Positions 5,220-56,578 of a stretch of 64,000 bases of DNA are shown piece after piece; the stretch's first letter is position 1; the number at the start of each line of letters is the position of its first letter. Position numbers and translations under genes: made by a program. Below the pieces are notes generated by a model. It ran no database searches. It was not told the DNA's origin and worked only from the letters and a program-made list of their open reading frames with translations. The DNA is from a virus, in UHGV virus genome UHGV-0072281. One strand, written 5' to 3'.

Positions 5220-5225
5220 AATTAT

Positions 5226-5264: not shown

Positions 5265-5383
5265 CTCGTAAACGCGTCTTAGACGCTGTTTTACACCTTA
5301 AGACGATTAATGGTGTTTAAAAAATAAAAGGTCGTCAGAATGCGATACAGCGCGTTTTAGAGGGTGTTTTAATTAAAATATTT

Positions 5384-5424
5384 TCAGATATATATTACTT
5401 AGGTGAGAGAATTACGTAATACTC
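5384..5424 (+). promoter_or_regulatory. conserved phage promoter motif (TCAGATATATATTAC-TTAGGTGAGAG) plus downstream palindrome
   Basis: One of four near-identical copies in the window; lies after a terminator and ~50 nt before an RBS and ATG. Confidence 0.55.
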
Positions 5425-6469: not shown

Positions 6470-6475
6470 AAGCAA

Positions 6476-6517
6476 CCCCTAATCCCGAAAAGGATTAGGG
6501 GTACACTTTATTTATTT
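6476..6517 (+). terminator. rho-independent terminator
   Basis: cccctaatcc/ggattagggg stem followed by a T-rich tract. Confidence 0.65.
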
Positions 6518-6541
6518 TCGCTCTTAAAAGGAAATTGTGTC

Positions 6542-6697
6542 ATGAGAAATGTTAATGCAATGCTTAACCAGGCATTTGTTAACCAACAGCGTTTTCAGGA
6601 ACGCTTAGCACAACTTAAAACACAACACAGACCACCACAACAAAGAGTGGTTAAGAGCAAGTTCGGCGAAATGGTTTTCGAAAGAAAATCTTTCTAA
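6542..6697 (+). CDS. small basic protein, paralogue A of a tandem triplet (51 aa)
   Basis: AAGGA RBS; shares FxERL and C-terminal F(E/T)ERxS with the next two small ORFs; own terminator. Confidence 0.45.
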   Translation: MRNVNAMLNQAFVNQQRFQERLAQLKTQHRPPQQRVVKSKFGEMVFERKSF

Positions 6698-6706
6698 TAA
6701 CCGTTA

Positions 6707-6729
6707 GGGGTGTGACAGCACCCCTTTTT
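6707..6729 (+). terminator. rho-independent terminator
   Basis: ggggtg/cacccc stem followed by TTTTT. Confidence 0.55.
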
Positions 6730-6847
6730 ACGCTTTAACTTTTCCAAAGAGAAGTTAAAGCAGTAAGGACTGTTGGCGCAGTCCTTACTTGTCATCGCTA
6801 TTACAGAAACGTGATAGCACAATTCTAATTTTTAGAGGCGATCAGAA

Positions 6848-7015
6848 ATGTTCGACAGTATTACACAAATTTTTAACACTACCGTAAACAATCACGCTCA
6901 GCAAGCGAAGTTTAATGAACGATTAAGGGAAGTTCAACAATTAGGATTAAATAAAAGATTAAAATCTTCCAATAATCCTCGAGTACAGATCTTCACCGAA
7001 AGGAGAAGTAACTGA
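6848..7015 (+). CDS. small basic protein, paralogue B (55 aa)
   Basis: AGAGG RBS; QLGxNKRLKxSxN...QIxTExRS shared with paralogue C. Confidence 0.5.
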   Translation: MFDSITQIFNTTVNNHAQQAKFNERLREVQQLGLNKRLKSSNNPRVQIFTERRSN

Positions 7016-7024
7016 TAAAAACAA

Positions 7025-7052
7025 GGTGAGCTGTTGGAGCAGCTCACCTTTT
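7025..7052 (+). terminator. rho-independent terminator
   Basis: ggtgagctg/cagctcacc stem followed by TTTT. Confidence 0.65.
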
Positions 7053-7111
7053 ACAACGCCATTACGTTTCCGTAATGGATTTCTTTAATCACCCTACAAA
7101 GAGGGCTTACC

Positions 7112-7285
7112 ATGAACAATGGTTACTACTTTACTGACAAAATGCTTGCAGAACAATATGCAGCAAAAACCAATTTACAGCAACGTATCTACGAGTATAG
7201 TCAACTCGGTGCGAATAAACGATTAAAACCATCAACCAACCGTTTCACACAGATAATCACTGAAAAAAGGAGTGAACGCTACTAA
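7112..7285 (+). CDS. small basic protein, paralogue C (57 aa)
   Basis: AGAGGG RBS; clear protein-level similarity to paralogue B. Confidence 0.5.
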   Translation: MNNGYYFTDKMLAEQYAAKTNLQQRIYEYSQLGANKRLKPSTNRFTQIITEKRSERY

Positions 7286-7420
7286 CTAATAAAAGGGGGT
7301 GTGCTACCACCCCCTACTTAGTTCAGCAGTTGTCTTTCGTTCATAAATATTAGATGTCTTGTTTTTTTTTGCTTTTCGGGACGCATAAGGGGTCGTAGGG
7401 GGAGCCGAAGCTCCCCAGAC

Positions 7421-9533: not shown

Positions 9534-11819
9534 ATGAAAGATACCCGAATCTCTAATTTAGAGAAACTCGTAGAAGCCGGTACTAGTCTGGCCCAAAACG
9601 TCATCGGCAACAACACCGCCAGCGAAATGTGGAAGACGATTGTTGCAGGCGAGTCCGTACGTAGCAACGCAAAAGTATTTGGCGCTCTGCGTGACGAAGC
9701 ATCACAGCACTATGCCAACGCTTTTGGCGGCAAGAAAATGTCTCATGCTGCGACCGTCGCTTCCGCAATGATTCTGGGCGTAGCTAACCACGGTAAAGAC
9801 CTGCAAGAACGTGTTGCCCAGGAATACGCTAAGCCGGAATTCCACACCAAGTATAACCTGGATATTGGTATCCCTGGTGCGCAAGGTGGTGATTGGGGTC
9901 GTGAGCGTATGGTTGTTGCTCAGGAATACTACAGCAACAAAGACTACGACAAAAACTTGGGCCTGACCTGGACCCTGAACGTACGTGCTCTGGAAACTCA
10001 GTCCAAGTTTGCTGAAACACTGTTCCCGACCATTACCGTTGACACCAACGATGTTGGTATTACCGTACGTACTAAAGTGACTACCGTTTCTCGCGGTATC
10101 ATGAACGCGCTGCTGAGCAAAGACGTCGTTGAAGATCATCGTCGTCCGCTGCACAACGCACTGACTGACCACACCGTTCTCCAGGACGAAGCGATCAACA
10201 TCGTTCCTTACGTAATGGAAACCGGTGAAAACCAGGAATACTTCGTAAGCGAAGATCTGGTTCCGAACGAAAAAGTTCGCCTGGGTCGTGTACCTCCGTA
10301 TCCGACTAACTACCTGAGCTTTGCAAACGACACGCTGAACCTGTTCCAGCTGTCTGCGCATCCGGGTATCGTTCAGGAAGGTTACGATGAAACTGATGAA
10401 ATCGCACCGGGTTGTGCTCTGGGCAGCCTGCTGATTTCTGTACGTAAACCGGCCGAAGAAGCGAAAGCGGGTAAATTCATCAAACTGCACGTTCGTGACA
10501 TGCAGTTCGCAACCTTCCAGCGTCCTGCTGAAGGTGACGGCCGTGAACTGGTTCTGCAATTCCGTCGTACCGCGTTCTCTCTGAATGCGAAAACCACTGA
10601 CTGGAAAGGCGACGCTATTCCGGCACTGCAAGCACTGGGCCAGAACTCCTACACCCTGCGCTACGTTATCACCATCACCATGTCCCTGTTCACCAGCGGC
10701 CAGTTCGGTGGTAAAGTAGACATTTCCGGCCACAAACTGGAAATCGAAGGTCTGTACGATGCAACTGGTAACAAAGTTGATACCAAGTCTGGTACCGGCA
10801 AAGTTATCCTGGATGGCCTGAAACTCGAACTGATGGGCTGGCGCTTCGATGGTACTCGTACCAACGAAAACCGTCGTACCCAGGGTCTGCTGCTTGACCC
10901 AATTTGGGAACAGGAAAACTACAAACTGCAATACGGTTCTCCGATTCTGACCAAGTCTCCGGTTGGTGTTGAATACGACGACACTGAACGTCTGGATGAC
11001 CTGATCTCTGCGGTGAACATCCGTAACGAACAGCTGGCTATTACTCAGACGCTGTCTTACACTGAAGCAGTACGTAACGCAGCCGCTGCGATGATCACTC
11101 CGTGGGACAAACCGGCTATCCGTGGTCTGGGCCGTCACTGGGTTGCTCCGTGGTTCAAAGAGTCTGACTACAAAGTCGATGAAGTTGTTCAGTCTCTGGA
11201 TACCAAAGAAGCGCTGATCAACGCTCGTCAGGGTCTGTTGCAGCGTATCGGTAGCCAGGTAACTCAGGCTATCCAGGATTCTCGTTTCATTCCTGCACTG
11301 CGCCTGCTGACCGCTGATCCGGACATTCTTCCGAAAGTTATTATCGCAACTGACGAACCGACTGCATCCATGCTGCTGCTGGTTCAGGGCGACCAACGTC
11401 TGCTGGGCGACCGTTATGAATACGAAGTCGTTACCACCAACGATGACCGCTGGCGTATCTACAACGCAGCTGACGATTCCTGGACTCGTCGTCTGCAATG
11501 GTTCCTGAAAGTTCCGACTGCGGACGATGGTTCCTACTGCGTACTGAACTGGGGTAACCACTTCTGGTCTCCGATCATGGTTACCAACATCAACATTCAG
11601 CGTAACGGTTCTACTTCTAAAGAACTGGCTGTACAGCCGCGTAACGCGCATATCTGCCACTGCCCGATCACTGGTCTGATTTGGGTTAAAGGCATCACCA
11701 AACTGGTTGAAGAAAAACTGGCTTACAACGTTTCTGTAGAACAGAACGGCCAGAAACAAACCGAAGGTGGTGTAGCAGGTAACCTTGCTGTCGAAGGCAA
11801 AGCTACCGCTGGTAAATAA
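9534..11819 (+). CDS. major virion structural protein, candidate major capsid protein (761 aa); tail sheath not excluded
   Basis: Codon usage sharply different from neighbours (CTG, CGT, GGT, ACC, AAA, GAA dominate); strong terminator directly downstream; size is in the range I recall for jumbo-phage capsid proteins (from memory, unverified). Confidence 0.45.
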   Translation: MKDTRISNLEKLVEAGTSLAQNVIGNNTASEMWKTIVAGESVRSNAKVFGALRDEASQHYANAFGGKKMSHAATVASAMILGVANHGKDLQERVAQEYAKPEFHTKYNLDIGIPGAQGGDWGRERMVVAQEYYSNKDYDKNLGLTWTLNVRALETQSKFAETLFPTITVDTNDVGITVRTKVTTVSRGIMNALLSKDVVEDHRRPLHNALTDHTVLQDEAINIVPYVMETGENQEYFVSEDLVPNEKVRLGRVPPYPTNYLSFANDTLNLFQLSAHPGIVQEGYDETDEIAPGCALGSLLISVRKPAEEAKAGKFIKLHVRDMQFATFQRPAEGDGRELVLQFRRTAFSLNAKTTDWKGDAIPALQALGQNSYTLRYVITITMSLFTSGQFGGKVDISGHKLEIEGLYDATGNKVDTKSGTGKVILDGLKLELMGWRFDGTRTNENRRTQGLLLDPIWEQENYKLQYGSPILTKSPVGVEYDDTERLDDLISAVNIRNEQLAITQTLSYTEAVRNAAAAMITPWDKPAIRGLGRHWVAPWFKESDYKVDEVVQSLDTKEALINARQGLLQRIGSQVTQAIQDSRFIPALRLLTADPDILPKVIIATDEPTASMLLLVQGDQRLLGDRYEYEVVTTNDDRWRIYNAADDSWTRRLQWFLKVPTADDGSYCVLNWGNHFWSPIMVTNINIQRNGSTSKELAVQPRNAHICHCPITGLIWVKGITKLVEEKLAYNVSVEQNGQKQTEGGVAGNLAVEGKATAGK

Positions 11820-16750: not shown

Positions 16751-16782
16751 AGGAGAGCCGAAGCTCTCCTCCTTTATTTTTA
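16751..16782 (+). terminator. rho-independent terminator
   Basis: aggagagc-cgaa-gctctcct hairpin followed by a T-rich tract. Confidence 0.7.
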
Positions 16783-24746: not shown

Positions 24747-24752
24747 AACCAA

Positions 24753-24790
24753 CCTCTACCTTCGGGTAGAGGTTTTCTTCTTTTTATTTT
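24753..24790 (+). terminator. rho-independent terminator
   Basis: cctctacc-ttcg-ggtagagg hairpin followed by a long T-rich run. Confidence 0.75.
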
Positions 24791-27516: not shown

Positions 27517-27529
27517 TAGTAACGGTGGG

Positions 27530-31462: not shown

Positions 31463-31496
31463 CCCCTACCTAACGGTAGGGGCGGGTTTCTTTTTT
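31463..31496 (+). terminator. rho-independent terminator
   Basis: cccctacc/ggtagggg stem followed by T-rich tract. Confidence 0.7.
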
Positions 31497-32224: not shown

Positions 32225-32259
32225 CCCCTACCTTCGGGTAGGGGGTTATTTAATTTTTT
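32225..32259 (+). terminator. rho-independent terminator
   Basis: cccctacc-ttcg-ggtagggg hairpin followed by T-rich tract. Confidence 0.7.
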
Positions 32260-32260
32260 C

Positions 32261-32300
32261 TCAGATATATATTACCTTAGTGAGATTACACAGTAATCTC
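32261..32300 (+). promoter_or_regulatory. conserved phage promoter motif plus 8-bp hairpin (gagattac/gtaatctc)
   Basis: Copy 2 of TCAGATATATATTACC; directly after a terminator; precedes the XRE regulator gene. Confidence 0.55.
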
Positions 32301-33402: not shown

Positions 33403-33415
33403 TTTGTAACAAACA

Positions 33416-33441
33416 GGGAGCTTCGGCTCCCTTTTTCTTTT
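33416..33441 (+). terminator. rho-independent terminator
   Basis: gggagc-ttcg-gctccc hairpin followed by a T run. Confidence 0.75.
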
Positions 33442-36332: not shown

Positions 36333-36839
36333 ATGAGTGAGACTCTGGATTTTAATCAGCTCGAACAACACGATTTTGATCTCGGTGTTCGTGATATCGA
36401 TGCTGATCATGAAACACGTTGTAAAGAGCTGTTTAACCGTTACGGTCAGCTCATCACCGGTGCCTCTGATGACACCGAATTCAGTTTAGATGAGTTTGAA
36501 AAAGTTTTGTCGTGTTTTATCACCGATTGCCTGGCGAAGAAAGCGTTACTTGTAGAACTGAACTTAGACTCCGTCGAACCTACCGATGCCCACGCGGTGT
36601 TGAAAGAATCCATTATCCCAACTGATGAGATTATGGACACGGTAGCAGGTATTCGTGGTACGTTTGAAACCGCTGTAGATGAATACACGGAACAGCTTCG
36701 TGAGTCAGGACTGACGTTGTGTGCGCCAGCAGGCGAGCAATTACCGTCCGACGCAGAAACTGAAGAAGCGCGTAGCCGCTTAGCACGTTATGTTATCACG
36801 TCTATCTTGGTAGATGATCGCGAAGAGAATCTGCTGTAA
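36333..36839 (+). CDS. strongly acidic protein (168 aa), DNA-mimic candidate
   Basis: High D+E content throughout; own terminator. Confidence 0.5.
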   Translation: MSETLDFNQLEQHDFDLGVRDIDADHETRCKELFNRYGQLITGASDDTEFSLDEFEKVLSCFITDCLAKKALLVELNLDSVEPTDAHAVLKESIIPTDEIMDTVAGIRGTFETAVDEYTEQLRESGLTLCAPAGEQLPSDAETEEARSRLARYVITSILVDDREENLL

Positions 36840-36845
36840 GCTGCA

Positions 36846-36880
36846 CCCTCTCTCCAGACGGAGAGAGGGTGTATTTTTTT
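36846..36880 (+). terminator. rho-independent terminator
   Basis: ccctctctcc-agac-ggagagaggg hairpin followed by a T run. Confidence 0.75.
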
Positions 36881-36935
36881 ACGCGTATAGCCGTAGTTAT
36901 GCACAAGTAAACAAAATTAATTGAGGAACAATCTG

Positions 36936-37253
36936 ATGTGGTTAAGTGCTATTCATCGCGATTTACCGAAAACGGCAGTGAGTTTTGCTAAGAAAACTCC
37001 TGTTCCTAACGTTGGTGTTGCTAAATTTGAACGAGTGGAAGAGGGGCAATTCGTTGTAACGGATCATAAAGAAAACGAATTTATGTTGTATCATCCAGAA
37101 GTGGATACCTCTGAAATTTGTGAGGGTGTTTTTTTATTGTCCTGGCAAGACCCTGAAACTAAAGAGTGGAAGTGGTGCACCGCTAAACCATTAAAAGAAA
37201 TCGAAAACGGTTATGGGATTGGAGAAATTTATGTCGAACCAGAACCACACTAA
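36936..37253 (+). CDS. hypothetical protein (~105 aa)
   Basis: ATG 36936 with GAGGA 8 nt upstream. Confidence 0.5.
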   Translation: MWLSAIHRDLPKTAVSFAKKTPVPNVGVAKFERVEEGQFVVTDHKENEFMLYHPEVDTSEICEGVFLLSWQDPETKEWKWCTAKPLKEIENGYGIGEIYVEPEPH

Positions 37254-37298
37254 TTTCGATATAACATCAGCATTGCGTTGTTAACGGTCTAAAAAATT

Positions 37299-37332
37299 TA
37301 AGATATATTTCATCTATGTGAGAATTCTCACT
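37299..37332 (+). promoter_or_regulatory. degenerate copy of the promoter motif plus 14-bp palindrome gtgagaattctcac
   Basis: taAGATATATttcatctatGTGAGA followed by a perfect palindrome, 25 nt upstream of the ATG at 37355. Confidence 0.35.
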
Positions 37333-37354
37333 TAACTAAATGGAGTAATCTAAA

Positions 37355-37624
37355 ATGGCTAAGATTTACATTGTTGAAAAACGTTCAGGTAATGTTCTTT
37401 CTTATCACGAAGAAGGCAAACCCGAAAGAGTTAAAACGCTCAAGCTTGAAGGTTTTGATGTGAAAAGCCTGCGTAAAGGCGTGAAGATTACTTTCAAAGG
37501 TTTGATTCGTGCAAGTAACTTACACATCATTAAAACGGACGGAACGATGGTTGCATTAGCACCGGCTACCGCTGCGAAAACGACAGCCGGTCGGGGTTGC
37601 TACGGCAGCAGTCGTAAGATTTAA
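37355..37624 (+). CDS. small hypothetical protein (89 aa)
   Basis: ORF between promoter-like element and terminator. Confidence 0.5.
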   Translation: MAKIYIVEKRSGNVLSYHEEGKPERVKTLKLEGFDVKSLRKGVKITFKGLIRASNLHIIKTDGTMVALAPATAAKTTAGRGCYGSSRKI

Positions 37625-37631
37625 GCAGTGC

Positions 37632-37668
37632 CCCTCTCTCCTAGCGGAGAGAGGGTACTTTTATTTTT
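37632..37668 (+). terminator. rho-independent terminator, near-duplicate of the one at 36846
   Basis: ccctctctcc-tagc-ggagagaggg hairpin followed by a T run. Confidence 0.75.
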
Positions 37669-37682
37669 CTTCGAGGTGTGTG

Positions 37683-38171
37683 ATGACAACGGTATTAGTA
37701 ACAAAGGATTACATTTTAGCTGATCGTTTAGTGGAATATAGTGGAACAGTTAAAGAATTGCCCAAACTACACAAACACAAAAACAAGTTTGTTTTCTACA
37801 CGGGGGAACGTGTACTGGACACCGAGTTTTGGAAAATGTCGATGACCGTTACTATAGAAAAATATTTAGACGAGGATAAACGCAAGAAAGTTGAGCCGTT
37901 GCTTGTGGAACTTTTCGAAAAAGAGCAATTGTTTGATCAAATCGTCATTTTTACGGTCAGAGAAACCTATTGGCTAGGATTAGTATCAGATAAGTTTAAA
38001 ACGTTTGTAATAAATAAAAATGCGGTCTGGACGACGGGATCTGGTGGCGGCTTTGCGCGGGCAGCTTGGGCAACAGGAATATCAGAAAAGAAAATTATGC
38101 CATTGGTAGGATCAATTGATACAGCATCATCACAAACGTACGACTTGTTTTACAGGAAGCATTTACGATGA
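37683..38171 (+). CDS. hypothetical protein (~162 aa)
   Basis: GAGGT RBS before ATG 37683. Confidence 0.5.
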   Translation: MTTVLVTKDYILADRLVEYSGTVKELPKLHKHKNKFVFYTGERVLDTEFWKMSMTVTIEKYLDEDKRKKVEPLLVELFEKEQLFDQIVIFTVRETYWLGLVSDKFKTFVINKNAVWTTGSGGGFARAAWATGISEKKIMPLVGSIDTASSQTYDLFYRKHLR

Positions 38172-52101: not shown

Positions 52102-52105
52102 CACG

Positions 52106-52147
52106 GTAGCAGGGGCTAAGCCCCTGCTACCTTTTTCTTTATTTTTT
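52106..52147 (+). terminator. rho-independent terminator
   Basis: gtagcagggg-ctaag-cccctgctac hairpin followed by a long T-rich run. Confidence 0.8.
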
Positions 52148-52148
52148 C

Positions 52149-52192
52149 TCAGATATATATTACCTAGAGGAGAGTGAAATTTACATTCACTC
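52149..52192 (+). promoter_or_regulatory. conserved phage promoter motif plus hairpin (gagtgaa/ttcactc)
   Basis: Copy 3 of TCAGATATATATTACCTAG; directly after a terminator. Confidence 0.55.
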
Positions 52193-56525: not shown

Positions 56526-56536
56526 TAAAAATAATT

Positions 56537-56578
56537 TCAGATATATATTACCTAGGTGAGAGTTCAGTTACTCTCACT
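56537..56578 (+). promoter_or_regulatory. conserved phage promoter motif plus hairpin (gtgagagt/actctcac)
   Basis: Copy 4 of TCAGATATATATTACCTAGGTGAGAG. Confidence 0.55.

What the first reader, a model, noticed from the sequence alone, without database searches (positions are those of the whole stretch)
36846..37668. Near-identical terminator hairpins reused at different sites
The hairpins at 36846 and 37632 share the stem ccctctctcc/ggagagaggg and differ only in the loop. Several other terminators share a cgaa or ttcg tetraloop on a GC stem (16751, 24753, 32225, 33416). This suggests copying of terminator modules during genome evolution.
Basis: seen in the sequence. Interest (0 to 1): 0.2.

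Follow-up and report, generated by a model that had tools for sequence, protein, structure and literature searches.

The report
Twin phage terminators with flipping loops
Two neighbouring transcription stop signals in a giant Salmonella-type phage are copies of one hairpin, and their loops differ because hairpin loops in this phage group repeatedly flip to their reverse complement; the element is ordinary, but its evolutionary history can be traced step by step.

Summary
Positions 36846-36869 and 37632-37655 carry CCCTCTCTCC-NNNN-GGAGAGAGGG. Each sits 5-8 nt after a + strand stop codon and is followed by a T-run (-27 and -23 kcal/mol). The window is a ~225-kb jumbo phage distantly related to SPN3US.

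Relatives always have terminators at these two sites. Only this clade has the same stem at both. In 41 related public sequences the stem is essentially invariant, and the inferred ancestral state is the identical 24-mer with loop GTTT at both sites. Composition-preserving nulls give P=0.005-0.01 for such a stem match. One-off copying is therefore supported. It recurs in SPN3US: 5 pairs share an arm of at least 10 nt, against 0.05 expected.

The loops diverged by inversion plus point changes, and every intermediate is observed:
- hp1: GTTT to AAAC (exact reverse complement) to AGAC.
- hp2: GTTT to GTTA to TAAC (exact reverse complement) to TAGC.

Exact loop flips also occur at 5 of 22 other orthologous terminators. 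One of them is 16751, whose cgaa is an inverted ttcg.

The shared ttcg/cgaa loops on unrelated stems reflect a family-wide preference for UUCG tetraloops, not copying. These are ordinary intrinsic terminators. The loop flipping is a modestly interesting by-product.

The parts
36333..36839 (+). Gene ending just before hp1; homologue of SPN3US gp109, function unknown
   Evidence: ORF; PHROG 8221, E=9e-56; syntenic with SPN3US_0109
36844..36871 (+). hp1: terminator hairpin. Core CCCTCTCTCC-agac-GGAGAGAGGG at 36846-36869; 12-bp perfect stem in this genome
   Evidence: -27.4 kcal/mol; present at the orthologous site in all 41 related sequences
36872..36882 (+). T-rich tail of hp1 (tatttttttac)
   Evidence: relatives read tgtatttatttt
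36936..37253 (+). First gene of the unit bracketed by the two hairpins; homologue of SPN3US gp110
   Evidence: PHROG 9789, E=6e-37; 83 homologues
37254..37290 (+). Remnant left by deletion of the gp111 homologue
   Evidence: Alignment with L006/L007, which keep a ~100-codon gene here; a 101-103-aa ORF is called here in most of the L287-L319 loci (those fetched with P0027, P0053, P0056, P0059) but not in the P0001 and P0004 groups
37291..37354 (+). Nearly invariant promoter-like stretch plus 5' leader palindrome GTGAGAATTCTCAC (37318-37331), upstream of the gp112 homologue
   Evidence: Only one variable column (A/C near 37297) from GTCTAAAAAA to the ATG across 5 genomes, while the flanking coding DNA varies; resembles the repeated promoter-like motif
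37355..37624 (+). Gene ending just before hp2; homologue of SPN3US gp112
   Evidence: PHROG 12339, E=1e-17
37632..37655 (+). hp2: terminator hairpin CCCTCTCTCC-tagc-GGAGAGAGGG
   Evidence: -23.3 kcal/mol; same stem at the orthologous site in every related sequence that reaches it (locus L286 ends before the site)
37656..37670 (+). T-rich tail of hp2 (tacttttatttttct), containing TTAT
16751..16770 (+). Unrelated terminator AGGAGAGC-cgaa; its loop is the inverted form of the ttcg found in relatives A, C and D
24751..24774 (+). Unrelated terminator AACCTCTACC-ttcg, unchanged in 4 relatives
31463..31482 (+). Terminator CCCCTACC-taac; shares its 8-bp stem with the next terminator downstream
   Evidence: An 8-mer match alone is not significant (P~0.3)
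32225..32244 (+). Terminator CCCCTACC-ttcg after the thymidylate kinase gene. A different stem occupies this site in relatives C and D
33415..33432 (+). Unrelated terminator AGGGAGC-ttcg. Relatives C and D have GGGGAAC-ttcg, i.e. two compensatory pair changes

Best explanation
hp1 and hp2 are factor-independent transcription terminators: a stable RNA hairpin followed by a U-run. They close two successive short transcription units of a ~225-kb jumbo phage related to SPN3US. By inference from relatives, the genes are transcribed by phage-encoded multisubunit RNA polymerases. The two sites are old: every relative examined has a terminator there. The shared sequence is not old. In the ancestor of this clade one hairpin, or a third one, was copied over the other. 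This was probably a short gene-conversion or template-switch tract of about 24-27 nt bounded by the stop-codon region and the common TTTATTTT tail. It left the identical 24-mer CCCTCTCTCC-GTTT-GGAGAGAGGG at both sites. Since then the stems have been held constant by the need to pair. The loops contribute nothing to predicted stability and have drifted by two processes. One is inversion of the loop to its reverse complement; the likely cause is intrastrand template switching at the perfect inverted repeat during replication. The other is single-base change. The paths are hp1: GTTT to AAAC to AGAC, and hp2: GTTT to GTTA to TAAC to TAGC. Shown here: hairpin anatomy, positional conservation, stem invariance, the loop states and their exact reverse-complement relations, and the excess of identical stems. 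Inferred: actual termination in vivo, the molecular mechanism of copying and flipping, and the direction of the copy.
For: Anatomy. Positional conservation with different stems in outgroups: SPN3US has GCCTCCTTGCC-cacg and CCCTACCTAAC-ttcg; the Erwinia phage has ACCTCACC-ttcg and a CCTACTCC-type stem; eight further IMG/VR genomes and two assembly lineages behave the same way. Clade-wide identity: the stem is the same at both sites in 4 IMG/VR genomes and in 37 loci from public assemblies. The only change is one G.U wobble at hp1 in 3 loci. Six of the 42 sequences still carry GTTT at both sites. Chance: P=0.005-0.01 for the stem alone. None of 121 bacterial hairpins with this same stem has a GTTT loop. 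IMG/VR-wide, the hairpin occurs only at these two sites of this clade, plus one unrelated contig. Copying is general in the family: in SPN3US, CCCTCTTACC-ttcg occurs 3 times, and two further pairs share arms of 10-11 nt, one of them with a shared 10-nt flank and an exactly reverse-complemented loop. Loop inversion at the very sites of the finding: hp1 GTTT (31 sequences) / AAAC (6) / AGAC (5); hp2 GTTT / GTTA / GTCT against TAAC / TAGC / TATC. GTTT/AAAC and GTTA/TAAC are exact reverse complements. They separate genomes that are 98-99% identical over 4.3 kb. The same flips occur at 5224, 6762, 16751, 59587 and 60080, and near-flips at 27529 and 7294, among 22 orthologous terminators. Loops are energetically neutral: predicted change 0.0-0.1 kcal/mol at hp1 and hp2, and at most 1.8 elsewhere. 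Literature: mapped 3' ends show hairpin-plus-U terminators with pyrimidine-rich 5' arms, 4-nt loops and a TTAT tail in the jumbo phages phiKZ and 201phi2-1 (PMC10914365; PMC11512511). 'Loop inversion only' is a recognised footprint of template switching (PMC8794818).
Against: There is no transcript 3'-end data for this phage, so termination is inferred from anatomy and from distant relatives. Terminator stems in this family come from a narrow alphabet (C/T-rich 5' arm, G/A-rich 3' arm). The very same stem also occurs more than 120 times in unrelated bacteria, against roughly 0.5 expected from size alone (my own estimate: 596 Gb divided by 4^20). Convergence is therefore not absurd. Similarity outside the hairpin is weak: upstream only TAAGC..TGC, which is absent at hp1 in relatives C and D, and downstream only the generic T-rich tail. 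Neither outgroup stem identifies donor and recipient. Flips might in part be spread by recombination between co-circulating phages rather than arise repeatedly, so the event count is uncertain. Some of the 42 sequences are the same genome held in two databases; for example, L304 is the same contig as IMG/VR relative D.
Confidence: 0.75

Rival explanations
1. Convergence. The two hairpins reached the same stem independently, because terminators of these phages are selected from a narrow sequence space (C/T-rich arm, tetraloop, G/A-rich arm, T-rich tail) set by the phage RNA polymerases.
For: Arms are strongly pyrimidine- or purine-rich: in the 15 pyrimidine-type arms of the window, C 79, T 32, A 25, G 12. 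phiKZ terminators share a motif of the same architecture. The identical stem arises in many unrelated bacteria. CCCTACC-like stems recur across the family at non-orthologous sites.
Against: Nulls that keep this composition still give P=0.005-0.01 for the stem. The inferred ancestral loops were also identical and of a non-preferred type, GTTT. SPN3US has a roughly 100-fold excess of identical arms, one pair with shared flanks. Outgroups show no gradual approach to this stem at either site.
Confidence: 0.15
2. PeSL-like recombination module. The two direct repeats bracket a small gene cassette and serve as crossover points for inserting, deleting or circularising the cassette, as the promoter/stem-loop repeats of T4-like phages do.
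For: The 24-nt direct repeats lie 786 bp apart and flank 2-3 small genes of unknown function. Gene content between them varies, since the gp111 homologue is present or absent. Composite terminator-promoter modules do exist elsewhere in the window, at 32225-32279 and 52105-52167.
Against: The cassette is syntenic in every relative out to 35% protein identity. The gp111 deletion has its end points inside the cassette (37254-37290), not at the hairpins. The repeat contains no promoter, and hp2 is only 24 nt from the next start codon. No genome lacking the cassette was found among the 42 sequences. PeSLs are defined by a sigma-70 promoter plus a stem-loop (PMC2839356).
Confidence: 0.05
3. Sequence-specific recognition. 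The identical stems are kept identical because a phage protein or RNase recognises this particular helix at both ends of the unit, for example for coordinated processing or autoregulation.
For: 20 stem nucleotides at 2 sites are invariant in about 40 genomes that differ by up to 17% elsewhere. The hairpin occurs only at these two sites in each genome.
Against: Several unrelated terminators are just as invariant across the same genomes: 6475, 11835, 24751, 42527. Loops, the usual protein-contact surface of a hairpin, vary freely. The one stem change seen is a pairing-preserving G.U wobble. That is what plain structural selection predicts.
Confidence: 0.05

Closest known systems
Conserved intrinsic terminators of phiKZ-like jumbo phages (phiKZ: 61 mapped terminators with motif BCCYCCCCHWWDGGGRRGGBYTTATKYYGT, PMC10914365; 201phi2-1, PMC11512511)
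   Same: Pyrimidine-rich 5' arm, 4-nt loop, purine-rich 3' arm, T-rich tail often containing TTAT, placed just after genes, many per genome. The host phage is of the same broad jumbo type with its own RNA polymerases.
   Different: The phiKZ consensus itself does not match anywhere in the window with up to 3 mismatches. Stems here are longer (10-12 bp) and diverse. Only two sites share a sequence, rather than dozens.
C(UUCG)G hairpins in phage T4 intercistronic regions (Tuerk et al. 1988, recalled from memory, not checked here)
   Same: Extra-stable UUCG tetraloops closed by C-G are the preferred terminator loop in this phage family: 19 of 63 hairpins in SPN3US, and several in the window.
   Different: hp1 and hp2 do not use UUCG. 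Their loops (GTTT and derivatives) have no special stability.
Minute hairpin-loop inversions in plastid spacers (e.g. trnH-psbA, PMC2903610, seen only as a title and abstract) and 'loop inversion only' template-switch mutations in rRNA hairpins (PMC8794818)
   Same: The loop is replaced by its exact reverse complement while the stem stays unchanged. This recurs among close relatives and occurs at transcript-end hairpins.
   Different: Here it is seen in a lytic jumbo phage, at tetraloops on 8-12-bp stems, and at a high frequency: 5 exact cases in 22 sites among 5 genomes, plus both sites of the finding.
PeSLs, the promoter-early/stem-loop cassettes of T4-like phages (PMC2839356, PMC4122927)
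   Same: Repeated terminator-type hairpins between small genes of unknown function in a large virulent phage. Repeats like these could support recombination.
   Different: No promoter lies within the repeated part. There are only two copies. Indel end points do not coincide with the hairpins, and the cassette is stably syntenic.
Repetitive extragenic palindromes (REP/BIME) of bacteria (recalled from memory)
   Same: Copies of one hairpin placed after genes.
   Different: REPs occur in tens to hundreds of copies and are spread by a dedicated transposase. Here there are two copies per ~225 kb, and the hairpin has no other copy anywhere in those phage genomes.

Membership tests
Intrinsic (factor-independent) terminator | G+C-rich hairpin that folds far better than shuffled sequence | tested here: met
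   -27.4 and -23.3 kcal/mol, z = -6.3 and -4.6, with 0 of 200 shuffles as stable
Intrinsic (factor-independent) terminator | T-run directly after the 3' arm on the coding strand | tested here: met
   tatttttttac and tacttttatttttct; both pass the terminator scan
Intrinsic (factor-independent) terminator | Lies just downstream of a co-oriented gene, and the position is conserved in relatives | tested here: met
   5-8 nt after the stop codons. A terminator hairpin is present at both sites in every relative examined down to 35% protein identity
Intrinsic (factor-independent) terminator | Transcript 3' ends map to the T-run | not testable with these tools
   No RNA data for this phage. Mapped only for the distant relatives phiKZ and 201phi2-1
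phiKZ-type conserved terminator motif | Match to BCCYCCCCHWWDGGGRRGGBYTTATKYYGT | tested here: not met
   0 matches in the window with up to 3 mismatches. By eye, hp2 differs at 6 or more positions
phiKZ-type conserved terminator motif | General architecture: Y-rich arm, 4-nt loop, R-rich arm, TTAT tail | tested here: met
   hp2 fully. hp1 carries TTAT in relatives but not in the window. TTAT is in the tail of 12 of 19 window terminators, against 41% of T-rich 16-mers, so the enrichment is weak
PeSL (T4-type promoter/stem-loop cassette) | The repeated unit combines a promoter with the stem-loop | tested here: not met
   The repeat is the hairpin only. hp2 is 24 nt from the next start codon. 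No sigma-70-like site lies beside either hairpin
PeSL (T4-type promoter/stem-loop cassette) | Insertions, deletions or replacements between relatives have the motif at their borders | tested here: not met
   The only indel, the gp111 homologue, has internal end points. The cassette is present in all 42 sequences
Mobile repeated hairpin (REP/MITE-like) | Many dispersed copies per genome | tested here: not met
   Exactly two copies in each of three ~221-225-kb IMG/VR contigs and in a fourth, 152-kb contig, and two in the window
Template-switch loop inversion | Loop equals the exact reverse complement of the orthologous loop, with the stem unchanged and loop length kept | tested here: met
   hp1 GTTT/AAAC and hp2 GTTA/TAAC. 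Also sites 5224, 6762, 16751, 59587 and 60080
Template-switch loop inversion | Arises during replication by intrastrand template switching | not testable with these tools
   The mechanism is inferred from the footprint only (PMC8794818)
Known RNA family | Match to an Rfam model at gathering score | tested here: not met
   0 matches in the whole window

The most novel reading that the evidence does not exclude
Terminator hairpins of this jumbo-phage clade may be hot spots of replication template switching. Under this reading, loops invert at a per-hairpin rate several times the per-site substitution rate, with flips separating genomes that are 99% identical. Occasionally a whole hairpin is overwritten by a copy of another terminator. 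Loop flipping plus ectopic copying would then be the main mode of terminator evolution in these phages, and perhaps in large virulent phages generally, rather than stepwise compensatory substitution. It would also give a natural read-out of hairpin or cruciform formation on replicating phage DNA.
Probability: 0.45. Interest if true: 0.45.

Novelty: new member of a known kind. Interest (0 to 1): 0.3.

Why it matters
For annotation, these are two ordinary terminators, and nothing about the genes around them changes. The wider point is methodological and evolutionary.

- Identical terminator stems within a phage genome can be real paralogues rather than compositional look-alikes.
- Differences confined to a hairpin loop should be read as possible inversions, not as four independent substitutions. 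Otherwise loop flips inflate divergence estimates and mislead alignments and phylogenies of intergenic DNA, as they do for plastid barcodes.
- About 40 near-identical public genomes of this phage carry every intermediate state. They form a convenient natural data set for measuring template-switch rates in a phage that replicates with its own machinery.

Tried and rejected
**Searches that led nowhere**
- The megablast search against 50,697 phage records found nothing. Only a distant blastn search identified the SPN3US group.
- The metagenome-wide scan for the stem with a 3-9 nt loop returned 120 or more unrelated hits and no relative of the window.
- The bacterial-genome scan likewise returned only unrelated hairpins. 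Its one use was to show that the stem arises convergently.
- Rfam has no match in the window, and there are no tRNAs.

**Ideas tested and dropped**
- Tandem gene duplication as the source of the twin terminators: rejected. The genes upstream of each pair are not paralogues.
- A mobile cassette or PeSL reading: rejected on synteny and on the indel borders.
- Literal membership of the phiKZ terminator motif: rejected.
- Continuing concerted evolution keeping the two stems identical: not needed, because unrelated terminators are equally invariant over the same divergence.
- A single template-switch event producing both the loop flip and the extra A that lengthens the window's hp1 stem: dropped. 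Loci L283 and L286 have the AGAC loop with a C at that position, so these were separate steps.
- The second identical-stem pair (31463/32225) as a copy: left open. An 8-mer match is expected by chance in about 30% of nulls, and the SPN3US orthologue of 32225 (CCCTCTTACC-ttcg) resembles it.
- Adjacency of copies as a rule: not general. The SPN3US copies lie 27-113 kb apart.

Full report
**1. What is in the sequence**

- hp1 (36846-36869) reads CCCTCTCTCC-agac-GGAGAGAGGG.
- hp2 (37632-37655) reads CCCTCTCTCC-tagc-GGAGAGAGGG.

In the window, hp1 is flanked by CA...TG, which makes a 12-bp perfect stem over 36844-36871.

Each hairpin begins 5-8 nt after the stop codon of a + strand gene (ORFs 36333-36839 and 37355-37624). 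Each is followed by a T-run. Both are among the best hits of the terminator scan, which finds 27 sites in 30-45 kb against 15.1 +/- 3.7 in shuffles. As RNA they fold at -27.4 and -23.3 kcal/mol, and none of 200 shuffles does as well.

The pattern with any 4-nt loop occurs twice in the window even with 3 mismatches allowed, against 0 expected.

**2. What genome this is**

Nearly all genes lie on the + strand. There is no close match among 50,697 deposited phage genomes. A sensitive search finds about 70% identity to the SPN3US group of Salmonella jumbo phages and to Erwinia jumbo phages, and gene order matches SPN3US gp105-gp117.

Four IMG/VR contigs of 152-225 kb are close relatives, at 95.3, 93.5, 83.0 and 83.5% nucleotide identity to the window. 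A protein search with the gene lying between the hairpins found 83 homologues. Most sit on 220-226-kb contigs in Salmonella, E. coli and Shigella assemblies and in gut metagenomes, and one of them is 100% identical.

**3. The sites are old, the shared sequence is not**

In SPN3US the two orthologous positions carry terminator hairpins with unrelated stems: GCCTCCTTGCC-cacg-GGTGAGGAGGT and CCCTACCTAAC-ttcg-GTTAGGTAGGG. The Erwinia phage has ACCTCACC-ttcg and a CCTACTCC-type stem. Eight further IMG/VR genomes and two assembly lineages at 35-59% protein identity also have terminators at both sites, and none has CCCTCTCTCC.

By contrast, every member of the window's clade has this stem at both sites. 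That covers the four IMG/VR genomes and 37 loci from public assemblies spanning gp110 identities of 67-100%. The only stem change seen is one A-to-G at hp1 in three loci, and it keeps pairing as G.U.

Six of the 42 sequences have the complete identical 24-mer, with loop GTTT, at both sites. GTTT is also the state from which all other loops derive with the fewest steps.

**4. Chance or copy?**

Terminator arms in this phage are compositionally narrow. I therefore used nulls that keep each arm's composition, or the pooled composition of pyrimidine-type and purine-type arms. The probability that any two of the window's 26 terminator-like hairpins share a 10-nt arm is 0.005 and 0.010 respectively.

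Four further observations point towards copying:
- The ancestral loops were also identical and of a non-preferred kind.
- None of 121 bacterial hairpins with the same stem has a GTTT loop.
- Across 2.9 million IMG/VR contigs the hairpin occurs only at these two sites of these phages, plus one unrelated contig.
- The genes upstream of the two hairpins are not paralogues, so the hairpin alone was copied.

Similarity outside the hairpin is slight: TAAGC..TGC upstream, and the generic TTTATTTT tail downstream. The copied tract was therefore only about 24-27 nt.

It has 63 terminator-like hairpins, and 5 pairs share at least 10 nt of arm against 0.054 expected; 0 of 3000 shuffles reached 5. These pairs include CCCTCTTACC-ttcg at three sites. 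Another pair (137590 and 186744) shares a 10-nt flank and has exactly reverse-complementary loops.

Copying of terminator hairpins to other terminator sites is thus a recurrent feature of this phage family. Convergence remains possible but is the weaker reading. In its favour, the same stem occurs more than 120 times in unrelated bacteria, where size alone predicts about 0.5 by my own estimate.

**5. Why the loops differ**

Aligning the five closest genomes shows that around hp2 the loop is almost the only thing that varies, and it changes at all four positions at once.

A census of 22 orthologous terminators in those genomes explains this. At five sites the loop of one genome is the exact reverse complement of the loop in another, with the stem untouched:

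| Site | One form | Other form |
|---|---|---|
| 5224 | CACAAA | TTTGTG |
| 6762 | TTGGCG | CGCCAA |
| 16751 | CGAA | TTCG |
| 59587 | TTTA | TAAA |
| 60080 | TTCG | CGAA |

Sites 27529 and 7294 are one step away from such a flip.

The larger sample settles the two hairpins of the finding. Loop counts among the 42 sequences:

| Hairpin | Forward type | Inverted type |
|---|---|---|
| hp1 | GTTT 31 | AAAC 6, AGAC 5 |
| hp2 | GTTT 7, GTTA 6, GTCT 9 | TAAC 11, TAGC 5, TATC 3 |

One locus (L286) ends before hp2, so hp2 has 41 entries.

AAAC is the exact reverse complement of GTTT, and TAAC is the exact reverse complement of GTTA. The window's loops therefore follow from the common ancestor by one inversion plus one or two single-base changes, and every intermediate is present in living genomes:
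- hp1: GTTT to AAAC to AGAC.
- hp2: GTTT to GTTA to TAAC to TAGC.

Flipped and unflipped forms separate genomes that are 98-99% identical over 4.3 kb. Flips are therefore frequent, or are readily exchanged between genomes. They are predicted to be neutral for folding: the change is 0.0-0.1 kcal/mol at hp1 and hp2, and at most 1.8 kcal/mol elsewhere.

**6. The ttcg and cgaa loops**

The stems at 16751, 24751, 32225 and 33415 are unrelated to each other. ttcg is the favoured loop throughout the family, with 19 ttcg and 4 cgaa among 63 hairpins in SPN3US. This matches the well-known stability of C(UUCG)G hairpins in phage T4, which I cite from memory.

The cgaa at 16751 is an inverted ttcg, because relatives A, C and D have ttcg there. 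The cgaa at 7399 belongs to a - strand gene and reads ttcg on that strand.

**7. How it most likely works**

The hairpins are intrinsic terminators that end two short transcription units. By analogy with SPN3US, which encodes several RNA polymerase subunits, transcription is by phage polymerases.

In the jumbo phages phiKZ and 201phi2-1, mapped 3' ends lie at hairpin-plus-U terminators with a pyrimidine-rich arm, a 4-nt loop, a purine-rich arm and a TTAT tail (PMC10914365; PMC11512511). The hairpins here have that architecture but do not match the phiKZ consensus.

The inversion footprint is the one described for intrastrand template switching at perfect inverted repeats (PMC8794818). It is familiar from plastid spacer hairpins (PMC2903610). 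The same kind of short template switch or conversion between two terminators, seeded by their similar tails, would account for the copying. These mechanisms are inferred, not shown.

**8. Rivals**

- **PeSL-type recombination cassette** (PMC2839356). This fails because the repeat holds no promoter, the cassette is syntenic throughout the family, and the one indel inside it (loss of the gp111 homologue) has internal borders.
- **Sequence-specific recognition of the helix.** This is not needed. Unrelated terminators are equally invariant, and the loops vary freely.
- **Assembly artefact.** This is unlikely. Each orientation recurs in independent assemblies from several sources with consistent flanks, and 24-nt hairpins are far shorter than sequencing reads.

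**9. Verdict**

The element is an ordinary pair of terminators in a known kind of phage. The added value is a fully documented history: one ancient copy, then repeated loop flips. The analysis also indicates that loop inversion and terminator copying are common in this phage family.

Noticed in passing
window 5380-5402, 32257-32279, 52145-52167, 56533-56555: A ~20-nt motif, TTTCAGATATATATTACCTAG, occurs four times on the + strand just upstream of genes; the core 12-mer is exact twice. Each copy is followed at once by a small leader hairpin. It looks like a phage-specific promoter. From memory, it resembles the AT-rich TATATTAC early-promoter consensus reported for phiKZ. SPN3US and the Erwinia phage have cagatagat(g/a)ttat at matching places.
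   Followed up: partly
window 32225-32279 and 52105-52167: At two places a terminator hairpin, its T-run and the promoter-like motif abut directly. They share about 25 nt (ttttttctcagatatatattacct). These are composite terminator-promoter modules, closer in design to T4 PeSLs than the hairpins of the finding.
   Followed up: no
window 37291-37354: This intergenic stretch is nearly invariant (one variable column, A/C near 37297) in five genomes whose flanking coding DNA differs by up to 17%. It contains a variant of the promoter-like motif and the palindrome GTGAGAATTCTCAC at 37318-37331.
   Followed up: partly
window 37254-37290: A gene of about 100 codons (homologue of SPN3US gp111) has been deleted here in the window and its nearest relatives. 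It is present in most other members of the clade.
   Followed up: yes
window 6475-7420: About 950 bp with no ORF of 100 aa or more is packed with seven hairpins. Some resemble each other: 6762 and 7023 share CTG-ttggNg-CAG, and 6706 and 7294 share AGGGG(G)TG. One of them (6762) shows an exact loop flip, and 7023 shows two compensatory pair changes against relative B. SPN3US has tiny genes and similar hairpins in the same place. No Rfam match.
   Followed up: partly
window 31463-31482 and 32225-32244: This is a second pair of successive terminators with an identical 8-bp stem (CCCCTACC), 762 bp apart. It is not significant on its own (P~0.3). Relatives C and D carry a completely different stem at the second site (GGTACCACC-caac), so a terminator has been replaced at an orthologous position.
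   Followed up: partly
SPN3US JN641803.1: 67345, 94154, 180981; 113924/160009; 137590/186744 (loci L146, L147, L281): SPN3US reuses identical terminator hairpins at distant sites. One 24-mer occurs three times. The pair 137590/186744 has a shared 10-nt flank but exactly reverse-complementary loops.
   Followed up: yes
loci L148-L267 (bacterial genomes): The same hairpin stem with a 4-nt loop occurs at least 120 times in unrelated bacteria. Several copies lie within single genomes, for example 4 in a Gemmatimonadota MAG, 4 in an Alphaproteobacteria MAG and 3 in a Thermoanaerobaculia MAG, which suggests repeated-hairpin families there.
   Followed up: no
loci L283-L319; proteins P0001-P0058: This uncatalogued ~225-kb phage turns up as whole 220-226-kb contigs in many Salmonella, E. 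coli and Shigella isolate assemblies and in gut metagenomes. It has no close relative in the deposited phage collection. That suggests a carrier state or frequent co-purification with isolates.
   Followed up: no
window 37680-38171: The gene after hp2 has a weak match to an HslV-family peptidase group (phrog_1040, E=3e-6).
   Followed up: no
window 9702-11759 (- strand): A 685-codon open frame runs antisense through the gene that, by synteny with SPN3US gp75, is the presumed major capsid gene (9534-11819, +). It is probably a by-product of codon usage.
   Followed up: no
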